Source: a virus
Reading direction: 5' to 3' (one strand)
Length of the DNA stretch: 64,000 nt
Virus record (IMG/VR): IMGVR_UViG_3300034374_012521
Location: 1 to 64,000 of that record
Made by a program: the position numbers and the translations under genes
Notes under the pieces: model-generated
Told to the model about the DNA's origin: nothing
What the model saw: only the letters and a program-made list of their open reading frames with translations
Databases searched by the model: none
Shown: in pieces, positions 27,444 through 40,300 of the stretch
Layout: each line of letters opens with the position of its first letter
How positions within the stretch are numbered: the first letter of the stretch is position 1

Positions 27444-27638
27444 GAGGTTCGGTTTAATCCATGTCTTCCTTTGAGGGATGATTATTCGGTCTTCTTAGAA
27501 AATCAGTTCTTTCCCCTTTCTTTTCTTTCTCGTATCCCCATTTGAAGATTTTAAGAACCATAACTAATCCGACCAAGCCGAACATTAGGATAAGGGAAAG
27601 TAGTGGAAAATCAATCATTGTTTTTAAGTTTTTATTAG

Positions 27639-27710
27639 TAGCCCCGCCAGGAATCGAACCTGGATCAAAAGTTTAGGAAACTCCCATTCTATCCGTTGAA
27701 CTACGGGGCC
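27639..27710 (-). tRNA. tRNA-Arg(CCT)
   Basis: Cloverleaf GGCCCCG.../TTCCTAA loop/GGTTCGATTCC. Confidence 0.9.
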
Positions 27711-27713
27711 AAT

Positions 27714-28367
27714 TTAATTTTTTCTAATAACCAAGAAAATATCATCTATTGTAGAAATGTGACCTGCCCTAATATAGTTTTTTTTGACAATCTCTAGAGA
27801 ATTTTGGTGACAGAACTTCACAAATCTTTCCTCGTCAAAATTTGCCCTTCCATCCACGTTTTTAAACGATAGATCATCACCACCAACTAGGTTAGAAAGG
27901 TGCAAAGAGCAGTACCCATTATTCTTAAGGACCCTTTTTATTTCCGACATGTATGAAATAACAACTTCAAAGTGCATATGAACAAAAGAATCGTACGAAA
28001 ATACAAAATCTAGAAAATTGCTGGGTATCATATCCAAGGATTTACCATCGGTGACAAAATAGCCAGAAACCCTTTTACCGAATCTTTGAGCACACCTTGA
28101 GATACAGGTTTCATTTAGGTCTGCAACATACAGATGATTTATTTCGGGACATCTTTCAAGAACTTCGTTGGTCATTCTGCCAAACCCGCAAGCTATTTCC
28201 AATACATTTCCCTTTGCAAATGGAGATATGTGCGGATCTAGATTCTGCTCCCAGGTATAGTCAATACCTCTTTTATGAGTCCATTCGTTACCATCCGATA
28301 TCCAAGAGCTCTCAGAATTCCAGTGTCTTTGCTCCTCTATATTGATATTAATTCTATCGTCCGACAT
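27714..28367 (-). CDS. class I SAM-dependent methyltransferase
   Basis: VLEIACGFGR, DFVFSYDSFVH, RVLK..G. Confidence 0.88.
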   Translation of the reverse strand: MSDDRININIEEQRHWNSESSWISDGNEWTHKRGIDYTWEQNLDPHISPFAKGNVLEIACGFGRMTNEVLERCPEINHLYVADLNETCISRCAQRFGKRVSGYFVTDGKSLDMIPSNFLDFVFSYDSFVHMHFEVVISYMSEIKRVLKNNGYCSLHLSNLVGGDDLSFKNVDGRANFDEERFVKFCHQNSLEIVKKNYIRAGHISTIDDIFLVIRKN

Positions 28368-28387
28368 GCTTGTGTTCTAAAGATAAT

Positions 28388-29065
28388 CTAAATATAAGAT
28401 TTTCTGAATAAAGAAATCACATCCTTTGCGTCATCAACAGCATCATGTGTTACTATCTTGTCCAATCCAGCCCTTTCTTTACAAAGGCTTAAACCCGGGA
28501 GTGATGTGTCGTTTTTCCAATCGGTAAATAACACGCTTGGATCTAAAACCCTCTGTCTGATTCTAATTAATTGTTTCCACCTAGGGATCCTAACTAAAAA
28601 TTTCATATCGAAAGTAGCGAAATTTTTCCCAGCTGCAGATATTGTGATTGGTTTAGTTTTGTTTGTAATTGCTGGTAGCATTTTTCCATTTCTCCTCGTG
28701 ATATAACCACCAGATCCAGGATCACCTAGATCAACGAAATCATTCTCTGCTAACCAATAATAGAATTCCTCTGCAACATCGTGCTCATTCATGAATTTCA
28801 TGCCTGTGAGTCTTTCAAGATCAAATATTTCACTATCATCTTCAGCTGTTTGGTAATGAACAATAGATTCGATGATTTCTTTGTTCATGTTAATTGCATA
28901 GGGTGATCCCTCGATTCTTTTGTGCAAAATAGCTGCATGGAAGGTTGGAAGATCCTCCATGGGTTTAATGTTGTTGGTGTCTTCGATGACTGCACCAATT
29001 GTGAGGATCTGACAATTTTCCGGGTCAAGTCCTGTTGTCTCTAAATCTATACTTATATACTTCAT
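28388..29065 (-). CDS. DEDDh 3'-5' exonuclease
   Basis: IDLETTGL, GKN...FD, THDAVDDA. Confidence 0.88.
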   Translation of the reverse strand: MKYISIDLETTGLDPENCQILTIGAVIEDTNNIKPMEDLPTFHAAILHKRIEGSPYAINMNKEIIESIVHYQTAEDDSEIFDLERLTGMKFMNEHDVAEEFYYWLAENDFVDLGDPGSGGYITRRNGKMLPAITNKTKPITISAAGKNFATFDMKFLVRIPRWKQLIRIRQRVLDPSVLFTDWKNDTSLPGLSLCKERAGLDKIVTHDAVDDAKDVISLFRKSYI

Positions 29066-29074
29066 ATACTTTAT

Positions 29075-29398
29075 TTAAGACCCTACTTTTTTCGAAGATG
29101 TGTGGTTGCTGCGAATCAGTATTTCAACCTCCCTATCATCTAGGATCCCCGAAATTGGCTCTTCTTGTTCCTTCCAAGATTTATATTGCGGAACATAGTT
29201 TCCTTGCATCACAATCTCGTATTTAGAACCTTCATTTATAACTTCATATCTTATTAAAATACAATATGGGCTTGGAAATGATACCGTCTTAACGTCGATT
29301 ATGCTATCGTCGGTTTTCTTAATTTTCTTTTGAGCAATCCTATTTACCCACTTCCAAAATTTGTTCTTAGTGGGATTTCCGATAATTTTAAACTGCAT
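29075..29398 (-). CDS. hypothetical protein
   Basis: Start moved downstream of the terminator at 29471-29496. Confidence 0.5.
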   Translation of the reverse strand: MQFKIIGNPTKNKFWKWVNRIAQKKIKKTDDSIIDVKTVSFPSPYCILIRYEVINEGSKYEIVMQGNYVPQYKSWKEQEEPISGILDDREVEILIRSNHTSSKKVGS

Positions 29399-29470
29399 AA
29401 TATCAAATGATTGGTAATTCTTTCTATTTGCAATTATATTAATGTTTCCCGTATTGAAAAAACGAAGCAT

Positions 29471-29496
29471 AAAAAAAGGTCTCAAAATTGAGACCT
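29471..29496 (-). terminator. intrinsic terminator
   Basis: AGGUCUCAA/UUGAGACCU hairpin + U-run. Confidence 0.75.
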
Positions 29497-29522
29497 AAAA
29501 ATAAACAGGGGTCCTAAATTTT

Positions 29523-29714
29523 CTAGATGAAAAGTATTAGATCACCGAAAGAATCCCAATCTCCACTATCTTTTTCCGGTTTTTCTTCATCAACGGAGTC
29601 ACTATCTGAAATTTCGGAATAGTAATCACCCTGTGATTGGTAGTTTGGTAGGTAAAATTGGTGGTCGCTTGCAGATTTTTTTTCTTGGTTGTTTTGGGAA
29701 GGGGGTTGGCTCAT
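29523..29714 (-). CDS. small low-complexity acidic protein
   Basis: 63-aa ORF followed by a terminator. Confidence 0.45.
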   Translation of the reverse strand: MSQPPSQNNQEKKSASDHQFYLPNYQSQGDYYSEISDSDSVDEEKPEKDSGDWDSFGDLILFI

Positions 29715-29787
29715 TTTTTGGGAGTGGATTTTCTTTTATTTATCTTTTGATATTAATTTTTTTAATTGTAATACACTCACAAATATA

Positions 29788-30246
29788 TTAATTATTTGTT
29801 TCCAACACAACAACGGTATCGGGCATAATTAGCGGTCTAATCTCCAGATGTGAAGATTCCCCCGTGACTGGCTTTCTAGTATAACAAAAGACAGGCTTAC
29901 CGTCAGTATCATAATAAAAGTATTCCTTAGTTCTGTCATCTAGAAAGGCCCTGTACATCCCATTATTCTCGTCAACGTAAATGATCTGTCCCGATTCAGT
30001 ATCACTCCTTAAGCCAATGGCAAAAGTTTTTTTCTTATTAGAACGTTCCTCCTCATATTCATTTATGTGCTGCTCGATTCTTTGAATTGATGATTGTATA
30101 GATTCATATTCTTGAACTAACTTATTCAAATTGGAAGCATAGCTAAATATTGGGCTCATATACCCAATAAGTGTCACAATTGTACCAATAGCTGTAACGA
30201 TGAAAATGACATTACTAAACTTGGATTTAAACTGGGTGAGAGGCAT
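29788..30246 (-). CDS. membrane-anchored hypothetical protein
   Basis: N-terminal TM then coiled coil; TATATA motif upstream. Confidence 0.6.
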   Translation of the reverse strand: MPLTQFKSKFSNVIFIVTAIGTIVTLIGYMSPIFSYASNLNKLVQEYESIQSSIQRIEQHINEYEEERSNKKKTFAIGLRSDTESGQIIYVDENNGMYRAFLDDRTKEYFYYDTDGKPVFCYTRKPVTGESSHLEIRPLIMPDTVVVLETNN

Positions 30247-30295
30247 TTGACAAACATATATTTACATTATATATTCTGAATTTATACCAAAAGAG

Positions 30296-30369
30296 AGGCA
30301 CAGATTGGATTCGAACCAATGAATAGCGGGTTTGCAATCCGCTCCCTTAGACCACTTGGGTACTGTGCC
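30296..30369 (-). tRNA. tRNA-Cys(GCA)
   Basis: GGCACAG/CTGTGCC-T, loop TTGCAAA. Confidence 0.92.
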
Positions 30370-30519
30370 TTATGCAGGTACAGGGGTTTGTATTTTAGAA
30401 CCGGATGGAAGTTGGGCTCTTGCTAATTCTTTTGCAATTATAGAATTTGGTGCTTCGATATAAAGCCTTAGTGAACCGCCTAAACCAGTAGGTAAAATAT
30501 AGTCAACCCTGTATTTCAT
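30370..30519 (-). CDS. small hypothetical protein between tRNAs
   Basis: MKYRVDY... 49 aa, start outside tRNA-Leu. Confidence 0.5.
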   Translation of the reverse strand: MKYRVDYILPTGLGGSLRLYIEAPNSIIAKELARAQLPSGSKIQTPVPA

Positions 30520-30534
30520 TTCATAATTAATTAG

Positions 30535-30620
30535 TAGTCCGGGCGGGACTCGAACCCGCACGGGCATTACTGCCCAAAAGATTTTAAGTCTTTCATGTCT
30601 ACCGGTTCCATCACCGGACC
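30535..30620 (-). tRNA. tRNA-Leu(TAA)
   Basis: Long variable arm, loop CTTAAAA. Confidence 0.92.
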
Positions 30621-30655
30621 AACTTATACAAATCTGATAAAGTACTGGAAAATGC

Positions 30656-31525
30656 CTAAGATTTTTTCTGGTAGACTTTTAGATTTCTAATTTCCATTCT
30701 ACCTTCAGTAGGCTGATTCTCACCATCAGGTTGCTTTAAACCATTATTTAACACTAAATACTGGTCTTGCCCGTTGGTCTTAAGCATCTTTTTATTCTTG
30801 GCAACCTGTACTAGTTGCCCGTCAAAATAGAATTTAATAAAATTATCCGTCCAGTGTATTGCATACTGAACAAATCTTTCTTCTGGGCTTTTGACAAATA
30901 TTCGTGGCGCTCCATAATCTTTTTTACCTTCTTGCCAGGTATTACCGGTTCCCCAATGTATATTAGGTCTCATCTCAATCTCATTCACATCTTGATCTGT
31001 GTATGCCTCGAAGATGTCAATTTCTGGTGGCCATGAGTTTGTACCACTTAACCAAAAAGCGGACCACTGCATTTTTTCGACGGGAAGTTTAATTTCTGCT
31101 TCGATCCAGCCATAGGTAAAAGATCTTTTCGATGAAATAAGACCAGAAGCCCATGGTAAAGTAAATTCATCTGGTAGCTCTGGCTTTTGTTGCCATTTAG
31201 GAAGATCTTTCTTGTAAATTGTTTTTGGTAGATACTTATTCTCTAGAATCAAGCTTTCTCCACTCAAGAAAGTAGCATCTTCGCTCCAATACCACCAAAG
31301 TTGATCTGTGTGAAAAAATCCCCATGGATGTCCATATCTCCATTCTTCTGGATTGAGAGATTCTTCAGTGAAGGAATCCTCAAAAACTATTTCATAACCC
31401 TTTGGAGGGTTTGCCTTTCGTTCCCCAGAAACTTCTTTTCTGGAAAGCATCCATGCTTTAAATTGCAACCAGAAATTGTATAGGTTGTTCCAAGGTGTTC
31501 TTTGGAGATAGTGTTTAAGTACCAT
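30656..31525 (-). CDS. glycoside hydrolase family 16
   Basis: SGLISS...FTYG.IEA, WSAFWL, WPPEIDIFE (ExDxxE). Confidence 0.9.
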   Translation of the reverse strand: MVLKHYLQRTPWNNLYNFWLQFKAWMLSRKEVSGERKANPPKGYEIVFEDSFTEESLNPEEWRYGHPWGFFHTDQLWWYWSEDATFLSGESLILENKYLPKTIYKKDLPKWQQKPELPDEFTLPWASGLISSKRSFTYGWIEAEIKLPVEKMQWSAFWLSGTNSWPPEIDIFEAYTDQDVNEIEMRPNIHWGTGNTWQEGKKDYGAPRIFVKSPEERFVQYAIHWTDNFIKFYFDGQLVQVAKNKKMLKTNGQDQYLVLNNGLKQPDGENQPTEGRMEIRNLKVYQKKS

Positions 31526-31557
31526 AAATTTTATATTTATTTCAATTTATGTATTCG

Positions 31558-31630
31558 CACGCCAGGTAGGATTCGAACCCACGACCCTCGGTTTTGGAGA
31601 CCGGTACTCTACCAGCTGAGCTACTGACGT
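31558..31630 (-). tRNA. tRNA-Trp(CCA)
   Basis: Cloverleaf, loop CTCCAAA, G73. Confidence 0.92.
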
Positions 31631-31636
31631 AAATTG

Positions 31637-31719
31637 TTGGCAGGGACGGATTCGAACCGCCGTACTCCAGAGAGAGCAGATTTACAGTCTGCCGCCTTTA
31701 ACCACTCGGCCACCTACCA
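31637..31719 (-). tRNA. tRNA-Tyr(GTA)
   Basis: GCAGA-CTGTAAA-TCTGC, long variable arm; U1-A72 pair. Confidence 0.9.
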
Positions 31720-32411
31720 ATTTTCCTTATTACCAATTTTTGATTAGCATATCTGTGTGGTCCATCTTCAAAGAGATCATTTACAATTTCCCAGTTTGAA
31801 CCGCTTCTTTTGCAATAGTGATAAATCAAAGAACCTTTTCCAAAGATCTCGTGTTCAACCTCAAATTCTCTTTTCTCGATAACTTCACCACCACTAAAGA
31901 TGTTCCAGTAAATAAAAGTTCCCCTTACGAAATTGTCATCTATTATGATATAGGAACCTTTTTCCATCTTTCCTTCAATAGCTTTGAATTCCAAAAAGGT
32001 GTGAAGCATGGAAGGCTCTGGGTTGTAGATATCAAAATCCCACGAATCCAAATGTACAATTGTTGGTGATCCTTCATAGCTCATAAGAAAATCCACAGAG
32101 TCCATGGTTAAATTTACCAGTTCATCAAAATCCGGGAGGTGATCTTTATAAAGCTGAATGCTTCTGGATGAAATGTCTTCATCTACATCAATGGAGGAAA
32201 ATTTACCACCATGCTCTTTAGCCAAATGAGCAAACAAAAGTCCAAAGCATCCATCATCAAAAGATTGGCTTGCTCCGGTTTCTATAACCTCAATTGATTT
32301 TAAATGGCTTAGTTCTATAATATCCGAGATCCTTTGAGCTTGATCTTTTCTTTGATTGCTGACTTGTTCAAGGCCCTTATAAAAATCCAAAGACGGTTTC
32401 CAACTTCTCAT
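31698..32411 (-). CDS. class I SAM-dependent methyltransferase-like protein
   Basis: VIETG, SIDVD, DSVDFL, HLDSWD, IIIDD; true start at MRSWK because the longer ORF runs into tRNA-Pro. Confidence 0.75.
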   Translation of the reverse strand: MRSWKPSLDFYKGLEQVSNQRKDQAQRISDIIELSHLKSIEVIETGASQSFDDGCFGLLFAHLAKEHGGKFSSIDVDEDISSRSIQLYKDHLPDFDELVNLTMDSVDFLMSYEGSPTIVHLDSWDFDIYNPEPSMLHTFLEFKAIEGKMEKGSYIIIDDNFVRGTFIYWNIFSGGEVIEKREFEVEHEIFGKGSLIYHYCKRSGSNWEIVNDLFEDGPHRYANQKLVIRKIGRWPSG

Positions 32412-32425
32412 AATAAAATTATCTG

Positions 32426-32498
<73 letters not shown>

Positions 32499-32501
32499 AA
32501 T

Positions 32502-32687
32502 TTATTTTAAAGCTTTTTTAGATCTCTCTGCTAACCAAACAGCTCCTTGAAGCTTAAATTCTTTCCAATTGTCAAATTCTTTGAGATCCTCTATGACACT
32601 CTCAGGCAATAGGATAAATCCCTCGGGAGCAATTCCCTGGAACTTGTAATATCCCGAGTTTTCTATTTTTTCTTTAATGTTAGACAA
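32502..32687 (-). CDS. small hypothetical protein
   Basis: 61-aa ORF with TTG start between tRNAs. Confidence 0.5.
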   Translation of the reverse strand: MSNIKEKIENSGYYKFQGIAPEGFILLPESVIEDLKEFDNWKEFKLQGAVWLAERSKKALK

Positions 32688-32706
32688 TTGAATTAATTTA
32701 TTTTTG

Positions 32707-32780
32707 GGCCGGAGGTGGGAATCGAACCCGGCGTCACGGTTAGTTTTAGCTAACTTGCTCTACCACTGAGCTACTCCGAC
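32707..32780 (-). tRNA. aberrant tRNA-like element (anticodon undetermined)
   Basis: Good acceptor stem and D-arm, TTCGATT loop; 6-nt anticodon loop CTAAAA and mismatched T-stem. Confidence 0.6.
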
Positions 32781-32782
32781 TT

Positions 32783-32858
32783 TGGAGCGGAAGACGGGAT
32801 TCGAACCCGCGGCCCTCAGCTTGGAAGGCTGATGCTCTACCAACTGAGCTACTTCCGC
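32783..32858 (-). tRNA. tRNA-Gly(TCC)
   Basis: GCGGAAG/CTTCCGC-TCCA, loop CTTCCAA. Confidence 0.93.
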
Positions 32859-32863
32859 TTTTG

Positions 32864-32937
32864 CTCCCCCACCTGGGCTCGAACCAGGGACCTATTGATT
32901 AACAGTCAACCGCTCTAACCAACTGAGCTATGGAGGA
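32864..32937 (-). tRNA. tRNA-Asn(GTT)
   Basis: TCCTCCA/TGGGGGA-G, loop CTGTTAA. Confidence 0.93.
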
Positions 32938-32981
32938 ATATAAAGGTCCGGGCCCAAAAAGGGCCCTTTTGAAGACCTTAG

Positions 32982-33054
32982 TTGCGGGAGAAGGATTCGA
33001 ACCTCCGACCTCCAGGTTATGAGCCTGGCGAGCTACCTCTGCTACCATCCCGCG
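32982..33054 (-). tRNA. tRNA-fMet(CAT)
   Basis: C1:A72 mismatch, CGCGGG start, loop CTCATAA. Confidence 0.88.
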
Positions 33055-33063
33055 ATATAATTA

Positions 33064-33168
33064 AAGGAAGGGAAATCTGGCGAGTACTTGTATTTGCCCG
33101 TTTCACACCGGTACCAAGCCTCCCGTCTTTTTCCAAATCCTTGCCTCTGTGAATAAGCACCCTTCCTT
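33064..33168 (-). ncRNA. candidate ~105-nt structured RNA in the tRNA array
   Basis: Spacer closed by a perfect 9-bp terminal stem AAGGAAGGG/CCCTTCCTT. Confidence 0.45.
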
Positions 33169-33170
33169 AG

Positions 33171-33242
33171 TTGCCCCTGCTGGACTCGAACCAACACTGA
33201 CGGAACCAAAATCCGCTGTCCTGCCAATTAGACGAAAGGGCA
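33171..33242 (-). tRNA. tRNA-Gln(TTG)
   Basis: TGCCCTT/AGGGGCA, loop TTTTGGT. Confidence 0.9.
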
Positions 33243-33248
33243 AGATTG

Positions 33249-33322
33249 TGGGCCCAGCAGGGCTCGAACCTGCGACCTACTGATTATGAGTCAGTTGCTC
33301 TAACCAACTGAGCTATGAGCCC
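33249..33322 (-). tRNA. tRNA-Ile2(CAT) (lysidine type)
   Basis: GGGCTCA/TGGGCCC-A acceptor typical of Ile2, loop CTCATAA. Confidence 0.8.
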
Positions 33323-33329
33323 AAAAAAA

Positions 33330-33380
33330 CAGGATGCTTTTTAAATATTTGCTGTATCAAAAAGTTGCTGTATGCATCCT
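33330..33380 (-). ncRNA. AGG-stem/UACAGCAA motif RNA, tRNA-array copy
   Basis: AGGATGC-ATACAGCAA...ATACAGCAA...GCATCCTG; same architecture as the copies at 38321-38571. Confidence 0.6.
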
Positions 33381-33385
33381 TTTAG

Positions 33386-33467
33386 TACCGAGGGTCGGAC
33401 TCGAACCGACACACCATAAGGCGCTAGATCCTAAGTCTAGTGCGTCTACCAATTTCGCCACCCCGGC
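33386..33467 (-). tRNA. tRNA-Leu(TAG)
   Basis: CTAGA-CTTAGGA-TCTAG, variable arm. Confidence 0.93.
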
Positions 33468-33661
33468 ATTTGCAGGATATCGCTTAACCTGCGGTGAGTG
33501 TTCCTTTCACCTTGTTCTCTTTAAGAAATACTTCGGGTCTTTCAGGGTTTCTGATAGATGATTCGTTTGTTATGTGATTACTCCAAACCCTTTTTCTTCA
33601 TTCTAACATCATCATCTATTACAGCTTCACTGTATCTCTTTCCGATACTACGATTTTTTTG

Positions 33662-33748
33662 CGGAGAGAGTGAGATTCGAACTCACGATACCGTTTCCAG
33701 TACACTACCTTTCCAGGGTAGCACAATCGACCGCTCTGTCATCTCTCC
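33662..33748 (-). tRNA. tRNA-Ser(GGA)
   Basis: GGAGAGA/TCTCTCC-G, loop CTGGAAA, long variable arm. Confidence 0.92.
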
Positions 33749-33750
33749 TG

Positions 33751-33838
33751 TGGCGGAGAGGGAGGGATTCGAACCCCCGGTACGTTGCCGTACGCCAGTT
33801 TTCAAGACTGGAGCATTCGACCACTCTGCCACCTCTCC
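33751..33838 (-). tRNA. tRNA-Ser(TGA)
   Basis: GGAGAGG/CCTCTCC-GCCA, loop CTTGAAA. Confidence 0.93.
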
Positions 33839-33937
33839 GTATTCGGTTTTGTTCCACATTAGCCCTACCACACAGTGGACATGGGTAGGATTTTGACTAA
33901 GGTGCTCTGAAGAGCTTTACACCGAAAACCTGATCAG

Positions 33938-34010
33938 AGCCGCTGGAGGGACTTGAACCCCCGACAGGCTGATTACAAATCAGCTACTCTACCAGCTGAG
34001 TTACAACGGC
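33938..34010 (-). tRNA. tRNA-Thr(TGT)
   Basis: GCCGTTG/CAGCGGC-T, loop TTTGTAA. Confidence 0.93.
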
Positions 34011-34024
34011 TTTTAGGCATTTTC

Positions 34025-34041
34025 CAACATGTCAAAGAACT
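34025..34041 (-). promoter_or_regulatory. boxA-like antitermination element
   Basis: AGTTCTTTGACATGTTG just upstream of the first tRNA; resembles rrn boxA (GYTCTTTRACA). Confidence 0.55.
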
Positions 34042-34132
34042 GTTTGATTATTTGTCTTTTTTACATCCAGCAGGATATTATGTTTCCATACAAAAACACA
34101 AATAATTACATTTTTTCTCCTCTCAGAGTTTG

Positions 34133-34547
34133 TGGAGCTGGTGGGATTCGAACCCACGTCCAGCTAGGCACACCCAGAGAATCTCATTCACAGGCTTAGG
34201 TCATTTTTCTAAATAACCAAAATAGAAAGGTTTCATATATGTGGGAATCAAACCTATCGAAAGTACCTGGTCTCAGAGTTGGTTTAGACGGGCTCTGACC
34301 TGTGACCCGCATACTCCAGATCAACCATCGGAAGATCTAGACTTTCGACTTTCTGTTCCTAGGGAGTCGACCCCCGGTGCTTAGGCTGCAAGAGCAACTT
34401 CAGCGGTTTCAACAGAACCTAGTCCTGCCAAAACGAAAAATGGATTTTCGCCATTTGAAGTGTTACATAGGTTATTAAAGAGTTTCCAATGCTAACTCTG
34501 CCTGCAATTCAAAGAACGTTCGCCTCCTGTCGATTCCAGTCAGCCCC
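34133..34547 (-). ncRNA. ssrA: tmRNA
   Basis: 5' GGGGCTGACTGGAATCGAC; 3' GTGGGTTCGAATCCCAC-CAGCTCCA with G3.U70; internal tag ORF ending ALAA-stop. Confidence 0.96.
34381..34452 (-). other. tmRNA tag reading frame GENPFFVLAGLGSVETAEVALAA*
   Basis: Translation of 34452->34381; resume codon inferred from Bacteroidota GEN... tags. Confidence 0.8.
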
Positions 34548-34559
34548 ATTTCTGTTCAG

Positions 34560-34567
34560 CAAATTTA
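34560..34567 (-). promoter_or_regulatory. Bacteroidota-type -7 promoter box (TAAATTTG)
   Basis: Matches TAnnTTTG ~13 nt before the tmRNA 5' end; overlapped by the inverted repeat TTAATCT/AGATTAA. Confidence 0.45.
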
Positions 34568-34599
34568 ATCTTTGTAAGAGATTAAAAAAACTGAGATAT

Positions 34600-34633
34600 A
34601 AAAAAACCCAAATCTTTTGAGGGATTTGGGTTT
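34600..34633 (-). terminator. intrinsic terminator (attenuator terminator)
   Basis: AAACCCAAAUC/GAUUUGGGUUU hairpin + U-run. Confidence 0.8.
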
Positions 34634-34662
34634 AGATATATCTAGACTTCTTCTAAAACTAA

Positions 34663-34746
34663 CTATCTAAACCCGCAGGGTAAGTTATACCCTGTTGGGA
34701 ACGAACCCAACGTCCAAAGACACGATATTTGTTTAAATAGTTTCAT
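34663..34746 (-). CDS. putative leader peptide MKLFKQISCLWTLGSFPTGYNLPCGFR
   Basis: 27-codon ORF between a promoter motif and the terminator; last codons are complementary to the terminator 5' arm. Confidence 0.6.
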   Translation of the reverse strand: MKLFKQISCLWTLGSFPTGYNLPCGFR

Positions 34747-34767
34747 TCTAGATGAAGATTATGGTAA

Positions 34768-34795
34768 TTATATATCAAAGGACAAAAAAGTTTCC
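34768..34795 (-). promoter_or_regulatory. putative promoter GGAAAC-N13-GATATATAA for the leader/tmRNA/tRNA unit
   Basis: Contains both recurrent upstream motifs of this genome. Confidence 0.55.
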
Positions 34796-34834
34796 GCTTA
34801 TTCCGCTGTTTTATTAAGAAAATGAAATCCCGTA

Positions 34835-35950
34835 TTATTTCGACTCCACAAAGTATCTAAGTTTAGAGAATTCCAAAAACCTGGATGTATCTATATCATA
34901 CTCATCATGAGACAGCATTCCATCACCATCCAAGGATTCTATCGAGAACAAGAATCTAATTTTACCTACTCTCCAGATAGCATCTGGAATTTTGTACCAA
35001 GCCCATCCGCCATGGCTTAGTGTGTTGCTTTCCTCCATCATTAATTCACTCCCACATAGAAGTTTGAATTTAATTCTAACTAATGAAAATGGAGAATCCG
35101 AGCTTAAATGTAGAAGTATTCTTATATCACTAATATTATCCTTATTTACGTATGGGGAACACACAGAAGTTGTGTAAAGAGTGTATTCGTTCTTGTTATA
35201 TGCTAGCTTATCAATATCCCAATTTTCCCCAATTGGACCTCCGAAAAAATGGTCCAACTCATCGTTGGACTTAAAGATGGAATTCTCCCTTCCTGTGTTA
35301 GCGATGGAAGTTATGAAATCCTCAAAAACCATGTTCGGATATTTAGATACGAAATCTCTATTTTTCCTAATATTGAGATTGGGTATAAGGGATCTAACCC
35401 GGGAATTCATTCTCAGTATAAAAAGATGACTGTATACCCAATGAGATCTTGGGACTGAGAAAAAAATAGAGTCTAGATCCTTTCGTAATAATTCTTCCAG
35501 GAAAGAATTAATTTTTTTGCCAAAATCCTTAGGGAATATAAAGTCAGTTTCCATATAAACACAAAAATCATACCCCTTAGCAAAAGAAGCACCCAAAGAG
35601 GGGATAAAGAGGGATACAATAGCAGGAGTAAAATCTATCCAGCCTTTATAATCATAATATAAGGTAGATCCAGAAGGACCCTCTGTATCAACCCACTTGT
35701 AGCTAGGTATGTTTTCTACTAACGGTACAATTTCAGGGTTGAGAATATTTGAATCTTTAAAAGCAGATGTGTTGGTGTCGTTATAGAGGTAAAGGTCCAC
35801 CTTGTTTTTTATGCTGTCTGGGCAATCAAAGTGTGTCATTAATGTAACATCCCACCCAATACTCTTAATGGAAGAGATTATCTCAAGAAGATCCTTTTGT
35901 TTTTCTTCAGTGCTTGGAAATGATGATAATATAAAGTTACAATCTATCAT
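34835..35950 (-). CDS. hypothetical protein, possibly glycosyltransferase-like
   Basis: Lies in a glycan gene block; THF and YMETD (ExD) motifs. Confidence 0.5.
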   Translation of the reverse strand: MIDCNFILSSFPSTEEKQKDLLEIISSIKSIGWDVTLMTHFDCPDSIKNKVDLYLYNDTNTSAFKDSNILNPEIVPLVENIPSYKWVDTEGPSGSTLYYDYKGWIDFTPAIVSLFIPSLGASFAKGYDFCVYMETDFIFPKDFGKKINSFLEELLRKDLDSIFFSVPRSHWVYSHLFILRMNSRVRSLIPNLNIRKNRDFVSKYPNMVFEDFITSIANTGRENSIFKSNDELDHFFGGPIGENWDIDKLAYNKNEYTLYTTSVCSPYVNKDNISDIRILLHLSSDSPFSLVRIKFKLLCGSELMMEESNTLSHGGWAWYKIPDAIWRVGKIRFLFSIESLDGDGMLSHDEYDIDTSRFLEFSKLRYFVESK

Positions 35951-35962
35951 AGATGGATTAAA

Positions 35963-37582
35963 CTAGTTGGCGAACACATTGGTAATAGTGTCATTTTTCC
36001 TCCTGGAAATTATATAATCTTCAGTTGCAATATAATCAAGAGAATCGTCGAGTAGATGTTTAATGACCTGGTGTGGATAATTATTAATAGGTTCCCCATG
36101 AGCATTTAATGAAGTATTCAGAACAACCGGGATTCCAGAAATATTATGATATGCCGAGATCAATTTATGAAAGTGTGGGTTTCTTTCCTTGTTTACTATC
36201 TGTGGCCTTGCTGTACCGTCTTCTGCATGTACAACTGCTGGTATTCTACCGAGCCATTCTTCCCTTGTGTCGTAGCACAAAGTCATAAATTCAGCAGTGT
36301 GTTTTGATTTCTCAATATGGAAAACATCTTGGCTGAATTCTTCTAACACCGAAGGGGCAAAAGGCATAATCTCGGTTCTTCTGAGCTTTTCATTAAGCCT
36401 TCTGTGTGTATCTTTATCAGTTGGCTTTACAACTATACTTCTATTTCCTAATGCCCTTGGACCATATTCTGTTCTTCCCACGAATACTCCTACAACTGAT
36501 CCTTCATCTACGAGTTGTGCAACCCTTTCGTATGTCATAGGTTCGGTTTTCAGATTCCCCTGGTTTTCACTAATGATAGAATCCCATGCTTCCCTACTAT
36601 GGCTTTCTCCAAGGAAAGCATTCTCGAGTCTAAATGACTCCGTTATTTCTCCAAGATCGTTTGCAACTTTAATTGCTGCACCCAGAGCTAAACCACTGTC
36701 AGACATTGCTGGGTGAATGTAGATTTCATCAAAAAGACCCAAATCGTTAATAAACATATTCATCTTAACATTTGCAAAGAGTCCACCAGAAAAACATATT
36801 TTTCTGTATTCGGGGAACCTTCTACTAAGGTCTTCGAGGAAATCCCTCATAGTTTCATCTGTTACCTTCTGAAGGGCAAAAGCAAAATCCGCCCTCAACT
36901 GCTTATCAGTAAAAACACCACGGGGCTTGAGAATATGTTCGCAGATATAGTGGAACCTAGCTTCGTGATTTGCAGGGCGAAAGTTCAGATCTCCACCATA
37001 ATGTATACAGTCCTTTATCAGCTTGTAGATCATCTCGTCGTGTCTACCATGAGCAGCCAAGCCAACTATTTTACCCTCATCCTTAAGCATCTTCCATCCT
37101 AGGTGTGTACAAGAAGATGCCCAAAGTCCTGCTAAAGATGCAGTAGTTGGAATGTGTTGTGAATGCACCACCTCATAATCCCCATCCTCGCAAAGCAAAA
37201 TTTTTCCTCTACTCCTGTTGCCTTTGCCGTCGTGGGAAACACTAAGAACTTTGCCTTTCATCCCAGAGGTAAAGTATGATCCAAGGGTGTGAGATAAGTG
37301 GTGTGATACCTCAGTTGTTCTTCCCATAAAGAACCCAATGTTCTGTTTAACAATCTCCTTTTTATAAAATGAAGAGATTGCGAAATAATCCACATTCGAA
37401 AGATCAATACCGTGATCCCTCTTTACCACTTCAAGACAATTGGTTGGGGGGGCAAGTACATTATAACAGGATTTTATCCCAGTAAGCTTTTCTTCCTCAT
37501 AAATTCCAAGTATTTTACCATCTTTTAATACAGCAACAGAAGTGTCGTGCGAGCAAAAACCAATTCCTAAAATAATACTCAT
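35963..37582 (-). CDS. carbamoyltransferase (NodU/CmcH family)
   Basis: HDTS, EEEK, HHLSH, DGKG, EGKIVGLAAHG, EYGPRALGNRS, MPFAP, NTSLN.HGEP. Confidence 0.93.
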   Translation of the reverse strand: MSIILGIGFCSHDTSVAVLKDGKILGIYEEEKLTGIKSCYNVLAPPTNCLEVVKRDHGIDLSNVDYFAISSFYKKEIVKQNIGFFMGRTTEVSHHLSHTLGSYFTSGMKGKVLSVSHDGKGNRSRGKILLCEDGDYEVVHSQHIPTTASLAGLWASSCTHLGWKMLKDEGKIVGLAAHGRHDEMIYKLIKDCIHYGGDLNFRPANHEARFHYICEHILKPRGVFTDKQLRADFAFALQKVTDETMRDFLEDLSRRFPEYRKICFSGGLFANVKMNMFINDLGLFDEIYIHPAMSDSGLALGAAIKVANDLGEITESFRLENAFLGESHSREAWDSIISENQGNLKTEPMTYERVAQLVDEGSVVGVFVGRTEYGPRALGNRSIVVKPTDKDTHRRLNEKLRRTEIMPFAPSVLEEFSQDVFHIEKSKHTAEFMTLCYDTREEWLGRIPAVVHAEDGTARPQIVNKERNPHFHKLISAYHNISGIPVVLNTSLNAHGEPINNYPHQVIKHLLDDSLDYIATEDYIISRRKNDTITNVFAN

Positions 37583-38860: not shown

Positions 38861-40300
38861 TTAAATTATAATGTCTTTATACCTTTCAGAGAGGATAGTT
38901 TCGTTCATCACTTGGAGTGGTGAGATAATTTCACCCTTACAAATGCTTTTAAGAATTGCTGGTGAGAAACCACTTACCAAAGCTGTACCAGATTCAGTGA
39001 AAGAAACCGGCACGTTTCCACCTCGGGATTGAATATTCCAGTAGATGATGGAAGGCATTGTGTATCCTGCTTCAGCATACATCTCTCTGATCATTTCCTG
39101 TGCAGTAGGATTCCACTCTACAAGATCAGTTTTATTCCAATAAGACCTAGCCCTTGTCGCATTGTCGAATTCCATGTCGGAGAGGATCAAGATCTTCGTT
39201 GGCATTTCAGATGCAGGTACAGAATTTTTCACTGCCTGATCCAATATGTGTGAAAAGGTCTTTTGGAGATCTGTGTTCATACCCCAAGCAGCTCTAGATA
39301 ATTGCGAAAACCTCGACTTTAAATCACCCTTCAGTATTTGAATCTCTGGGTTAGCAGAGAAAGTTACAAAAGAGTCCTTAAACGCTCCCTCGTTTCTTTC
39401 AGAAATGTACATCCCTAAAGAGATTGCAACATCCAAGCAGTTAACATTAGAATTTCCACCAGCTGGTGTCACCATAGAACCTGAGGTGTCAACTACTGGA
39501 AGAATTCTTTCCTCGCTCCCCTCCGTGTAATCAGGAAGTGCTTTCCATTGCTCAGAGGCAAAGTCTGCATCTCCGTGTTTGAGAGTTTTGGTCACATCAT
39601 AAGGATAGACTGCAGCAGCATTTACTTTCTCCTCACCAGACCTTAGTTTCTCAAGATACAAATTATATCTCTCTGAATCATTTTTGTGAAATGCCTTGGT
39701 GTATCTTGCAGCTGCTACTGAAGGAAGCTTACCATATTCAATAGATTCCCAATCTTTAGCACACATAGCCTGCTCGACAACATTTGTGAGGCCGACCAGT
39801 GTCTTTCTATATTGCTTAGGCGTGAATCCTAAGAAATTTCTTAGCCTGTTTGCTACCGGACCCTTTCTAGGCATCCATTTAGCACAAAGCCCATTTTCGC
39901 TTTCGAGACCACTCTTTATTAGATCTAATGCAGGTGCTTCGAGCTTGGTGCCAATTAAAGTAAGCAAATCGTCCCACCTTCCATATTCTGGGATGAGATG
40001 TAGGTTTTTTCCTAGTATCTCTGGGTTGTCGCTTGCTAAATATGTAATAATATCCTTGAAGATCTGTCTTTCTCCTGCTCCGCCTCTGATGTCTCTTACC
40101 CAAAAAAGAATTCTCATGGCTGTAAGTGGATCCTCGTGAAACGCAAGTGAGAAGTTTGCAATAAGTCTTTGCTTATCCTGCCCTCTCATAGCACCAATCA
40201 TGAAGAATAAATCTACACAAGCATTCAAAGAAGATGAATTGGTTGTCATCCCATTTTCTGTGGTGGTGTTCTTGGTTCTAAGTGCGTCTACAAGTTTCAT
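38861..40300 (-). CDS. Ro60-like TROVE/vWA protein (DUF2828-type)
   Basis: TENG, RDIRGGAGER, YGRWDDL, AKWMPR helical region followed by vWA MIDAS DTSGSM, NTD, ILSDMEFD, YWN, SGFSP. Confidence 0.85.
   Translation of the reverse strand: MKLVDALRTKNTTTENGMTTNSSSLNACVDLFFMIGAMRGQDKQRLIANFSLAFHEDPLTAMRILFWVRDIRGGAGERQIFKDIITYLASDNPEILGKNLHLIPEYGRWDDLLTLIGTKLEAPALDLIKSGLESENGLCAKWMPRKGPVANRLRNFLGFTPKQYRKTLVGLTNVVEQAMCAKDWESIEYGKLPSVAAARYTKAFHKNDSERYNLYLEKLRSGEEKVNAAAVYPYDVTKTLKHGDADFASEQWKALPDYTEGSEERILPVVDTSGSMVTPAGGNSNVNCLDVAISLGMYISERNEGAFKDSFVTFSANPEIQILKGDLKSRFSQLSRAAWGMNTDLQKTFSHILDQAVKNSVPASEMPTKILILSDMEFDNATRARSYWNKTDLVEWNPTAQEMIREMYAEAGYTMPSIIYWNIQSRGGNVPVSFTESGTALVSGFSPAILKSICKGEIISPLQVMNETILSERYKDIII

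What the first reader, a model, noticed from the sequence alone, without database searches (positions are those of the whole stretch)
34600..34795. Leader-peptide attenuator upstream of the tmRNA/tRNA array: a candidate tRNA-pool sensor
Seen: minus strand reads promoter motif (34768-34795), then a 27-codon ORF MKLFKQISCLWTLGSFPTGYNLPCGFR* (34746-34663), then an intrinsic terminator (34633-34600), then tmRNA and the tRNA array. The ORF end GGGUUUAGAUA (34674-34664) is the exact 11-nt complement of UAUCUAAACCC (34638-34628), which overlaps the terminator 5' arm, so terminator and antiterminator are mutually exclusive. Two hairpins (GUUGGG/CCCAAC, CAGGGUA/UACCCUG) lie inside the ORF. Established: this is the layout of ribosome-coupled attenuators (trp/his/thr type). 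Inference: a ribosome reaching the stop masks the antiterminator and transcription terminates. Stalling on any leader codon (tRNA depletion or cleavage by host anticodon nucleases) would allow read-through into phage tRNAs and tmRNA. I know of no described attenuator controlling a phage tRNA array. Caveat: a TAAATTTG box after the terminator could give tmRNA its own promoter.
Basis: partly seen in the sequence, partly recalled or inferred. Interest (0 to 1): 0.88.

Follow-up and report, generated by a model that had tools for sequence, protein, structure and literature searches.

The report
Leader-peptide attenuator before phage tmRNA/tRNAs
An uncultured marine giant phage places a tiny translatable gene and a switchable transcription stop in front of its tmRNA and tRNA genes, and the tiny gene is built from codons read by the phage's own tRNAs, so it probably lets the phage make more of these RNAs when ribosomes slow down.

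Summary
On the minus strand a phage promoter-like motif (34776-34768) is followed by a 27-codon ORF (34746-34663), an intrinsic terminator (34633-34600), then tmRNA (34547-34130) and 16 tRNAs.

I found the same module in five lineages (six distinct sequences) of uncultured phages. All keep these features:
- An open frame of 26-28 codons, although the peptide sequence diverges.
- The stop codon 30-32 nt before the terminator arm.

The 2:3 helix has compensatory changes in two deep lineages. On its own it is more stable than the terminator.

Leader codons cover 11 of 13 scored phage tRNA types here, and 12 of 12, 8 of 8, 5 of 5 and 13 of 15 in relatives. This is well above random phage ORF windows.

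One metatranscriptome contig bridges leader, terminator and tmRNA.

Against a simple reading:
- A conserved Bacteroidota-type TAnnTTTG box lies between terminator and tmRNA, so tmRNA probably also has its own promoter.
- There are no tandem regulatory codons.
- Nothing is tested experimentally.

This scan reported the same kind of element before on another genome (e1-6048354, e1-6048367). My five literature searches found no description. I put about 0.6 on a ribosome-coupled attenuator.

The parts
34783..34794 (-). GAAAC + T-run element upstream of the promoter-like motif
   Evidence: Conserved in W, L003, L007/L009, L004 and L013. It is also present before the tmRNA of the leaderless L040 lineage.
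34768..34776 (-). GATATATAA promoter-like motif; predicted transcript start about 34761-34758
   Evidence: Seven of 11 minus-strand GATATATA hits in the window have a start of an ORF of at least 80 aa 17-27 nt downstream; about 4% of positions would by chance. The sORF ATG lies 21 nt after the motif, 20-22 nt in relatives. In L040 the same motif lies 10 nt before tmRNA.
34663..34746 (-). Leader sORF, 27 codons plus TAG
   Evidence: The frame is open in 6 of 6 related sequences (26-28 codons); the other frames hold 0-5 stops. Codons cover 11 of 13 scored phage tRNA types.
34731..34757 (-). Segment 1 (5' strand of helix 1:2, the anti-antiterminator); contains the ATG
   Evidence: Pairs with 34672-34647 in the minimum-energy fold. 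The 1:2 duplex is -24.4 kcal/mol against -9.6 +/- 2.8 for shuffled segment 1. It is present in all lineages at -16.4 to -18.8.
34647..34674 (-). Segment 2; pairs either with segment 1 (34672-34647) or with segment 3 (34674-34664); contains the stop codon
34623..34642 (-). Segment 3: 3' arm of the antiterminator (34638-34628), 5' arm of the terminator (34633-34623), and the outer-helix arm (34642-34637)
   Evidence: Antiterminator hairpin alone -18.1 kcal/mol against core terminator -13.0.
34595..34614 (-). Segment 4: terminator 3' arm (34614-34604), T-run to 34600, and the outer-helix arm (34600-34595)
34584..34590 (-). Second run of 7 T, conserved in all five lineages; either a back-up U-tract or the -33 region of the tmRNA promoter
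   Evidence: not resolved.
34560..34567 (-). TAAATTTG box (Bacteroidota sigma-A -7 type, TAnnTTTG), 13 nt before the mature tmRNA 5' end
   Evidence: Kept as TAAATTTG in L003, L007/L009 and L004, and as TATCTTTG in L013. The consensus comes from passages of PMC9723704 and PMC7366714.
34130..34547 (-). Phage tmRNA
   Evidence: Rfam RF00023, 88 bits. ARAGORN reads a 23-aa tag (GEN...ALAA) in the homologues of L004, L007 and L009.
27638..34010 (-). Array of 16 tRNA genes interspersed with ORFs

Best explanation
This is a ribosome-coupled (leader-peptide) transcription attenuator. It sits between a phage promoter and the phage's tmRNA/tRNA block.

Proposed mechanism:
- Transcription starts a few nucleotides after the GATATATAA motif.
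- With no ribosome on the leader, segment 1 pairs with segment 2, the 3:4 terminator forms and the RNA ends at the T-run.
- A ribosome that reads the 27 codons quickly reaches the stop codon inside segment 2 and masks it. The terminator forms again.
- A ribosome that is slowed or stalled in roughly the first 20 codons, possibly with a queued second ribosome, keeps segment 1 occupied and leaves segment 2 free. The 2:3 hairpin, which is more stable than the terminator, then forms first and RNA polymerase reads on into tmRNA and the tRNAs.
- Because the leader is built largely from single codons read by the phage's own tRNAs, the signal is probably the supply of those tRNAs, or translation speed in general. 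That would give negative feedback on the array.

What is shown: the anatomy, its conservation, the covariation, the energetics, the codon-tRNA match, and an RNA-library contig that spans the terminator.

What is inferred: translation of the ORF, the stall-dependent switch, and the nature of the signal.

tmRNA probably also has its own host-type promoter, so the attenuator would add regulated transcription on top of a basal level.
For: 1. Conserved geometry. In 6 distinct sequences from 5 lineages (W; L003; L007/L009; L004; L013) the motif-to-ATG gap is 20-22 nt, the ORF is 26-28 codons, and the stop lies 30-32 nt before the AAACCC of the terminator arm. Frame 0 has 0 stops in 6 of 6; the other frames have 0-5.

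2. Peptide. It is similar within the W/L003/L007 group, with many third-position changes, but unrelated in L004 and L013. That fits a role for the act of translation rather than for the peptide.

3. Helix 2:3. Anchored on the invariant hexamers, it is 11, 14, 14, 14, 10 and 9 contiguous pairs. Positions 6-8 read A-T/G-C/A-T in W, G-C/G-T/T-A in L004 and G-C/T-A/G-C in L013. With the partner slid by 1-4 nt, only 0-2 pairs remain.

4. Helix 1:2. It is present in all six sequences, -16.4 to -24.4 kcal/mol against shuffle means of -9.2 to -12.2. The segment 1 core changes in step with segment 2 in L013.

5. Energetics. The 2:3 hairpin alone is -16.7 to -20.0 kcal/mol. The core terminator is -12.5 to -14.4.

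6. Masking test. With a ribosome footprint at codon 3, the antiterminator replaces the terminator in the minimum-energy fold in 4 of 6 sequences (W, L007, L009, L004). With the footprint at the stop codon, the terminator forms in 6 of 6.

7. Codon sampling. CAT tRNAs and the odd tRNA of W were not scored.
- W: 11 of 13 tRNA types covered (p about 0.002-0.003).
- L003: 12 of 12 (p about 1e-5).
- L007: 8 of 8 visible (p about 0.001).
- L004: 5 of 5 visible (p about 0.02-0.03).
- L013: 13 of 15 (p about 0.01).
The nulls were random codon draws and random windows of phage ORFs. Off-frame controls covered fewer types in every case. Within amino acids that are only partly covered, 48 of 59 leader codons match a phage tRNA against 32.4 expected.

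8. Lineage-specific match. The L013 phage has Ala, Asp, Lys and Ser(GCT) tRNAs and no Leu tRNA in the visible array. Its leader holds GCA, GAT, AAA/AAG and two AGT codons and no Leu codon.

9. Promoter. The GATATATA motif is tied to gene starts. In the related L040 lineage it sits 10 nt before tmRNA with no leader, so the module lies between the array's promoter and the array.

10. Shine-Dalgarno. Its absence is not an argument against translation: 9 of 60 long ORFs have such a motif against 17.8% of random positions. Bacteroidota do not rely on it (passage of PMC9723704).

11. RNA. One metatranscriptome contig (run X1, 510 nt, depth 4.9) runs without a break from 34229 to 34738. That is from inside tmRNA across the terminator to codon 3 of the leader, and it stops short of the upstream gene.
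Against: 1. A TAnnTTTG box 13-18 nt before the mature tmRNA end is conserved in all five lineages. It fits the Bacteroidota sigma-A -7 consensus. tmRNA and the tRNAs may therefore be made largely from their own promoter, whatever the leader does.

2. There are no tandem regulatory codons. Single codons give a weak kinetic signal in the classical models.

3. Only codons 1 to about 10 put a ribosome directly on the segment 1 core. Most sampled codons lie at positions 11-22, so the model needs ribosome queuing or steric hindrance (my inference).

4. With a footprint at codons 8-24, the minimum-energy fold still shows the terminator in all 6 sequences. With it at codon 3, L003 and L013 also keep the terminator. 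Equilibrium folds do not by themselves give the switch.

5. In runs X2 and X4 the RNA contigs stop at 34537 and cover tmRNA only. The X1 contig could be contaminating DNA or overlapping transcripts; the tool warns that a contig shows no single transcript.

6. The sample is small: five lineages, three of them close. The tRNA sets of L004 and L007 are cut by contig ends, and the L004 and L007 rows used W's set as a stand-in.

7. Related phages (L014, L040, and the L036/L050/L085 group) have the tmRNA without the module, so it is dispensable.

8. TAnnTTTG is not enriched in the window as a whole (58 found against 70 expected). This cuts both ways.
Confidence: 0.62

Rival explanations
1. It is an independent small transcription unit: a micro-protein gene or a structured small RNA of about 160 nt with its own promoter and terminator, which merely lies upstream of tmRNA. 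tmRNA and the tRNAs are transcribed from the TAnnTTTG promoter. The alternative pairings serve RNA stability or translational control of the small ORF, not read-through.
For: - Own promoter-like motif and a strong terminator.
- Very stable fold, z = -8.8.
- Conserved TAnnTTTG box after the terminator.
- Peptide conserved with synonymous changes within the W/L003/L007 group.
- RNA contigs of X2 and X4 cover tmRNA only.
- The module is absent from related phages.
Against: - The peptide is unrelated in L004 and L013, while the ORF length and the position of the stop are kept.
- The inner hairpins are not conserved, so there is no conserved RNA core beyond the switch helices.
- The 2:3 helix covaries and competes directly with the terminator. 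An ordinary terminated gene does not need that.
- This reading does not explain the match between leader codons and phage tRNAs.
- The L040 lineage uses the same promoter type directly for tmRNA.
Confidence: 0.2
2. It is a transcription attenuator whose switch is set by something other than the ribosome. Candidates are a phage or host RNA-binding protein, an uncharged tRNA (T-box-like) or a small RNA that binds segment 1 or 2. On this reading the ORF is incidental.
For: The three competing helices and their covariation are equally compatible with any factor that sequesters segment 1 or segment 2.
Against: - No Rfam family (T-box, riboswitches, leaders) matches 34560-34840 near its gathering score. 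The best hit was 23 bits against a threshold of 50, and all E-values were 0.08 or worse.
- The region between segments 1 and 2 is not conserved in sequence or structure. That argues against a ligand or tRNA pocket.
- The frame is kept open in 6 of 6 sequences and its codons match the tRNA set.
Confidence: 0.1
3. It is a chance arrangement: an ordinary terminator after the upstream gene, with a fortuitous ORF and a fortuitous complement.
For: An 11-nt inverted repeat within about 60 nt is expected roughly once in a 64-kb window (my estimate).
Against: - Conservation of every element in five lineages.
- Compensatory changes and the slid controls.
- Fold z-score of -8.8.
- The codon tests.
Confidence: 0.03

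Closest known systems
Leader-peptide transcription attenuators of amino-acid operons (trpL, hisL, leuL, thrL, pheL type; recalled textbook knowledge; abstract of PMC3082878 seen in the listing)
   Same: - A short ORF in the leader.
- Four segments that form 1:2, 2:3 and 3:4.
- The start of the ORF in segment 1 and its stop in segment 2.
- An intrinsic terminator with a T-run.
- An antiterminator that overlaps the terminator 5' arm.
   Different: - It regulates RNA genes (tmRNA and tRNAs) of a phage, not biosynthetic enzymes.
- It has no tandem run of one regulatory codon. Instead it has about one codon for most tRNA types that the phage encodes.
- The host is probably a Bacteroidota, which does not use Shine-Dalgarno sequences.
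- A second promoter probably follows the terminator.
Ribosome-stalling attenuators before antibiotic-resistance genes
   Same: A leader ORF senses a general slowing of the ribosome rather than one amino acid. Stalling leads to antitermination.
   Different: The signal there is a drug bound to the ribosome. Here the codon content points to tRNA supply. The genes controlled are also different.
T-box leaders
   Same: They sense the state of the tRNA pool and act through a terminator/antiterminator choice.
   Different: T-boxes bind uncharged tRNA directly through conserved RNA motifs and need no ORF. No T-box match was found in 34560-34840, and the inner region is not conserved.
Candidate leader-peptide attenuators and leader sORFs in Bacteroidota (passages of PMC9723704 and PMC7366714)
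   Same: They show that sORF-based attenuation is considered plausible in this phylum despite the lack of Shine-Dalgarno sequences.
   Different: Those candidates lie upstream of amino-acid biosynthesis operons or host mRNAs. The lists are in supplements that I could not open.

Membership tests
Ribosome-mediated (leader-peptide) transcription attenuator | Short ORF in the transcribed leader, placed to be translated | tested here: met
   A 26-28 codon ORF is open in 6 of 6 sequences. The ATG lies 20-22 nt after the promoter-like motif, as for 7 ordinary genes at 17-27 nt. Translation itself is not shown.
Ribosome-mediated (leader-peptide) transcription attenuator | Intrinsic terminator between the leader ORF and the regulated genes | tested here: met
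   An 11-pair stem plus a run of 7 T at 34633-34600, kept in all five lineages.
Ribosome-mediated (leader-peptide) transcription attenuator | Antiterminator helix (2:3) mutually exclusive with the terminator | tested here: met
   Nine to 14 pairs that overlap the terminator arm by 6-9 nt, with compensatory changes in L004 and L013. Slid controls give 0-2 pairs. It is more stable than the terminator.
Ribosome-mediated (leader-peptide) transcription attenuator | Anti-antiterminator helix (1:2) that overlaps the ORF | tested here: met
   Helix 34757-34731 with 34672-34647. It is present in all lineages and better than shuffles by 2.0-5.3 sd.
Ribosome-mediated (leader-peptide) transcription attenuator | Stop codon placed so that a terminating ribosome covers segment 2 | tested here: met
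   The stop lies 9-14 nt after the start of the GGGTTT core of segment 2 and 30-32 nt before segment 3 in all six sequences.
Ribosome-mediated (leader-peptide) transcription attenuator | Tandem regulatory codons for the sensed amino acid | tested here: not met
   There is no run of any codon. Instead single codons cover most phage tRNA types. This is the main departure from the classical family.
Ribosome-mediated (leader-peptide) transcription attenuator | Read-through depends on ribosome stalling in the leader | not testable with these tools
   Only a bridging RNA-library contig is available. This needs Term-seq, Ribo-seq or reporters.
T-box leader | Conserved specifier and T-box motifs that a covariance model can detect | tested here: not met
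   No T-box hit among 15 weak matches in 34560-34840 at E up to 10.
Y RNA / YrlA-like RNA (considered because a DUF2828/DUF7788 protein lies 4 kb upstream) | Match to the YrlA model, or a conserved Ro-binding stem plus a tRNA-like module | tested here: not met
   No YrlA hit on the element. The T-arm-like hairpin of W is not kept in relatives.
Bacteroidota sigma-A promoter (for the tmRNA) | TAnnTTTG at -12 to -5, and TTTG near -33 | tested here: inconclusive
   The -7 box is present and conserved. The -33 region is a run of T, not TTTG. No start site has been mapped.

The most novel reading that the evidence does not exclude
The leader is a codon-sampling sensor. It presents about one codon for nearly every tRNA the phage encodes. 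A shortage of any of them, from high demand late in infection or from host anticodon nucleases, slows the test ribosome and opens transcription into tmRNA and the tRNA array. This would be a homeostat for a virus-encoded translation kit. As far as my searches show, it would also be the first attenuator that senses tRNA supply in order to control tRNA genes themselves.
Probability: 0.4. Interest if true: 0.9.

Novelty: new variant of a known kind. Interest (0 to 1): 0.78.

Why it matters
How phages regulate their tRNA genes is largely unknown. Current debate is about why phages carry tRNAs at all: codon compensation, or escape from tRNA-cleaving defences (abstracts of PMC10264068 and PMC11464382, seen in the listing).

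If this reading is right, three things follow:
- A leader that reads out translation speed on the phage's own tRNA-dependent codons and gates tmRNA plus tRNAs would be a feedback control on a viral translation kit.
- The classical attenuation mechanism would extend from amino-acid operons to RNA genes.
- It would give a compact, testable sensor of about 160 nt.

It would also show ribosome-coupled attenuation operating in a Bacteroidota setting, where translation initiation works without Shine-Dalgarno sequences.

Tried and rejected
1. Y-RNA idea. The minimum-energy fold of W looks like a long stem with three hairpins, one of them like a T-arm, and a DUF2828/DUF7788 protein lies at 38861-40300. 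I rejected it because there is no YrlA hit and the hairpins are not conserved.

2. Close cultured relatives. blastn of 33900-35200 against phage records matched only the tRNA-Thr part. tblastn with the carbamoyltransferase gave hits below 30% identity, mostly in cyanophages.

3. The search for related loci with the upstream 371-aa protein found nothing.

4. Exact search for the W hairpin region in viral contigs gave 0 hits. The terminator pattern gave only L003 and L013 again.

5. L005 was a chance hit inside a coding region.

6. The loose tmRNA pattern gave 81 loci. Of the 77 I screened, none had 3 or more same-strand tRNAs within 6 kb downstream. I inspected 11. L036/L050/L085 and L040 have related tmRNAs without the module. 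The other 66 were not inspected by eye.

7. MAFFT alignments A1 and A2 misplace L004 and L013 by one base at the invariant hexamers. I did not use them for pair counts, and I did not run the count of structure pairs, fold_alignment or a covariance model. Pair tables were instead anchored on the invariant GGGTTT and AAACCC hexamers.

8. Sigma-70-type promoter scan: not enriched.

9. TAnnTTTG is not enriched in the window.

10. RNA runs. Parts of the stretch without contig cover (34751-35000 in all four runs; 34566-34750 in X2-X4) prove nothing.

11. Literature. Searches returned no paper whose listing describes an attenuator before phage tRNA or tmRNA genes. I read only passages of PMC9723704 and PMC7366714. 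Their supplements (lists of structured 5' regions and sORFs) are closed and could hold related host elements.

12. CAT-anticodon tRNAs (Met or Ile2) and the odd tRNA at 32706-32780 were left out of the coverage tests.
Full report
SETTING

The window is the first 64 kb of a 118-kb IMG/VR virus record, estimated 43% complete. G+C is about 38% and the long ORFs listed are on the minus strand. It encodes DNA polymerase, both topoisomerase II subunits, an exonuclease and two carbamoyltransferases. This is the replication region of a large uncultured phage.

Three things point to a Bacteroidota host:
- Shine-Dalgarno motifs are not enriched before genes: 9 of 60 long ORFs against 17.8% of random positions.
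- The tmRNA tag starts GEN and ends ALAA (ARAGORN on the homologues; that this tag pattern is typical of Bacteroidota is my recollection).
- A TAnnTTTG box precedes the tmRNA. The consensus comes from passages of PMC9723704 and PMC7366714.

THE OBSERVATION

- the 27-codon ORF at 34746-34663;
- the terminator at 34633-34600;
- the exact 11-nt complement of 34674-34664 with 34638-34628;
- two hairpins inside the ORF;
- TAAATTTG at 34567-34560.

Rfam confirms a tmRNA at 34547-34130 (88 bits), which ARAGORN missed in the window. Sixteen tRNAs follow.

The 166 nt from 34760 to 34595 fold at -62.2 kcal/mol, z = -8.8 against shuffles. It uses a long helix, 34757-34731 with 34672-34647, that contains both the ATG and the stop.

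RELATIVES

No cultured phage is close. Pattern scans seeded on the tmRNA found related uncultured contigs.

Five lineages carry the module:
- the window (W);
- L003 (identical in L008, L011 and L012);
- L007 (L006 is nearly identical) and L009 (L010 is identical), which differ from each other by a few bases;
- L004;
- L013.

In all six distinct sequences:
- the GATATATAA motif is followed after 20-22 nt by an ATG;
- the frame is open for 26-28 codons, while the other two frames hold 0-5 stops;
- the stop lies 30-32 nt before the AAACCC of the terminator arm.

The peptide is similar within W/L003/L007, with many synonymous third-position differences. In L004 and L013 it is unrelated. The inner hairpins of W are not kept.

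Related phages have a similar tmRNA without the module: L014, L040 and the L036/L050/L085 group. In L040 the same GAAAC/T-run/CATATATAA promoter type lies 10 nt before the tmRNA.

PROMOTER

Sigma-70-like sites are not enriched in the region. GATATATA occurs 11 times on the minus strand. Seven of these are followed after 17-27 nt by the start of an ORF of at least 80 aa, against about 4% expected. One of the other four is the sORF. The L040 arrangement shows that the motif works before a non-coding gene too, so it is a promoter-like signal and not a translation signal.

THE THREE HELICES

I anchored the pair tables on the invariant GGGTTT and AAACCC hexamers, so no alignment freedom enters.

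Helix 2:3:
- It has 11 (W), 14 (L003, L007, L009), 10 (L004) and 9 (L013) contiguous pairs.
- The three positions beyond the invariant core are A-T, G-C, A-T in W; A-T, G-C, G-T in L003/L007; G-C, G-T, T-A in L004; and G-C, T-A, G-C in L013.
- With the partner slid by 1-4 nt, at most 2 pairs remain.

Helix 1:2:
- It is found in every lineage: -16.4 to -24.4 kcal/mol against shuffle means of -9.2 to -12.2. The z-score is strongest for W (-5.3) and weakest for L004 (-2.0).
- In L013 the core of segment 1 has changed together with segment 2.

Helix 3:4 and energetics:
- The terminator stem is kept. L004 has compensatory changes inside it.
- Folded alone, the 2:3 hairpin (-16.7 to -20.0) is more stable than the core terminator (-12.5 to -14.4) in all six.
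- In five of six, 2:3 is the minimum-energy fold of the nascent RNA up to the end of the terminator's 5' arm.

Ribosome footprint simulation:
- A footprint at codon 3 gives the antiterminator in 4 of 6.
- A footprint at the stop gives the terminator in 6 of 6.
- A footprint at codons 8-24 still gives the terminator at equilibrium.
- The switch, if real, is therefore kinetic, and may need a queued ribosome on segment 1 (inference).

CODONS AND tRNAs

The arrays of the relatives are syntenic. I scored each tRNA type by strict wobble and left out the CAT tRNAs and the odd tRNA of W.

Coverage of tRNA types by leader codons:

| Lineage | Types covered | Mean for random windows | p |
|---|---|---|---|
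| W | 11 of 13 | 6.2 | about 0.003 |
| L003 | 12 of 12 | 5.7 | about 1e-5 |
| L007 | 8 of 8 visible | not restated | about 0.001 |
| L004 | 5 of 5 visible | not restated | about 0.02-0.03 |
| L013 | 13 of 15 | not restated | about 0.01 |

- Off-frame readings of the same DNA cover fewer types in all ten controls.
- As a plain fraction, 50-65% of leader codons are read by phage tRNAs, against 36.7% in phage ORFs.
- The effect holds at the synonymous level: 48 of 59 codons in partly covered amino-acid families match, against 32.4 expected. The L004 and L007 rows used W's tRNA set as a stand-in.
- The L013 phage has a different repertoire, with Ala, Asp, Lys, Glu, Gly(GCC), Ser(GCT) and Phe(GAA) and no Leu tRNA in the visible part. 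Its leader has Ala, Asp, Lys and two AGT codons and no Leu codon. The specificity is modest, though: other leaders cover 10-12 of its 15 types.
- The three close lineages are not independent, and two arrays are cut by contig ends.

RNA EVIDENCE

Twenty-four metatranscriptome runs hold part of the stretch. I laid four.
- X2 and X4 have contigs that end at 34537, inside the mature tmRNA.
- X3 has a contig inside tmRNA.
- X1 has one 510-nt contig (depth 4.9, four differences) that runs from 34229 to 34738. It crosses the TAnnTTTG box, both T-runs and the terminator, and ends 8 nt into the sORF, about 20 nt short of the predicted start and not in the upstream gene.

This is a weak hint that transcripts from the upstream promoter read through into tmRNA. 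DNA carry-over or overlapping transcripts cannot be excluded.

WHAT SPEAKS AGAINST

- The TAnnTTTG box is kept in all five lineages, with different inner letters in L013, at a distance that fits a start site a few nucleotides before the RNase P site. tmRNA very probably has its own host-type promoter, so the attenuator would regulate only the transcripts that come from the phage promoter.
- There are no tandem codons.
- The module is dispensable in related phages.
- Nothing shows translation or regulation directly.

COMPARISON WITH KNOWN SYSTEMS AND NOVELTY

The anatomy meets five of the six structural criteria of leader-peptide attenuators that I could test. It fails the criterion of tandem regulatory codons, and the genes downstream are RNA genes. 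It is not a T-box or another Rfam family.

Five full-text searches gave no listing that describes such a control before phage tRNA or tmRNA genes. Subscription journals and closed supplements are not covered.

This scan had already flagged the same kind of element on another genome (e1-6048354, e1-6048367). Those are AI notes, not independent evidence. I re-derived the codon-sampling claim on this window and its relatives.

VERDICT

I rate it a new variant of a known kind. Confidence is about 0.62 for a ribosome-coupled attenuator and about 0.4 for the specific tRNA-supply sensor. Interest is 0.78.

Noticed in passing
window 34130-34547 (-); L004:9725-10144; L007:3873-4287; L009:2260-2674: The phage tmRNA encodes an unusually long 23-residue tag that starts GEN and ends ALAA. 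The tag frame is kept, with amino-acid substitutions, between lineages. ARAGORN found the gene in three relatives but missed it in the window, where only Rfam detects it.
   Followed up: partly
window, minus strand, e.g. 62351, 56957, 54430, 48146, 40326, 34776, 2069: A GATATATA(A/G) motif recurs 17-27 nt upstream of gene starts: 7 of 11 exact hits. It is probably a phage promoter element. It also precedes the tmRNA directly in the related L040 contig.
   Followed up: partly
window 34584-34600 and 34637-34642 (-): The terminator hairpin can be extended by an outer helix (34642-34637 with 34600-34595) that spans the first T-run. A second conserved run of 7 T follows at 34590-34584. This may be a tandem or back-up terminator, a processing site, or part of the tmRNA promoter.
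   Followed up: partly
window 32706-32780 (-); L016:6043-6119: An odd tRNA for which ARAGORN reports a two-letter anticodon; its Rfam score of 30 bits is just over threshold. ARAGORN reads the homologue in L003's contig as tRNA-Phe with anticodon AAA.
   Followed up: no
window 38861-40300 (-): A 479-aa protein with DUF2828 and DUF7788 domains lies 4 kb upstream of the leader. That it may be Ro60-like is my recollection and an earlier scan note (e1-6150957). I did not test it.
   Followed up: no
window 35963-37582 (-) and 19584-21257 (-): Two carbamoyltransferase genes (NodU/CmcH type) in one phage. The nearest cultured homologues are in cyanophages, below 30% identity.
   Followed up: no
window 29788-32492 (-): Protein-coding ORFs are interspersed in the tRNA array, among them a glycoside hydrolase family 16 domain protein at 30656-31525.
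   Followed up: no
whole window: Shine-Dalgarno-like motifs are not enriched before genes: 9 of 60 against 17.8% at random positions. This fits a Bacteroidota host.
   Followed up: yes
L015 (G002:C1:1-6400): The L013 phage carries a larger and different tRNA set. At least 16 are visible, including Ala, Asp, Glu, Lys, Gly(GCC), Ser(GCT) and Phe(GAA), with no Leu. The array is cut by the contig end.
   Followed up: partly
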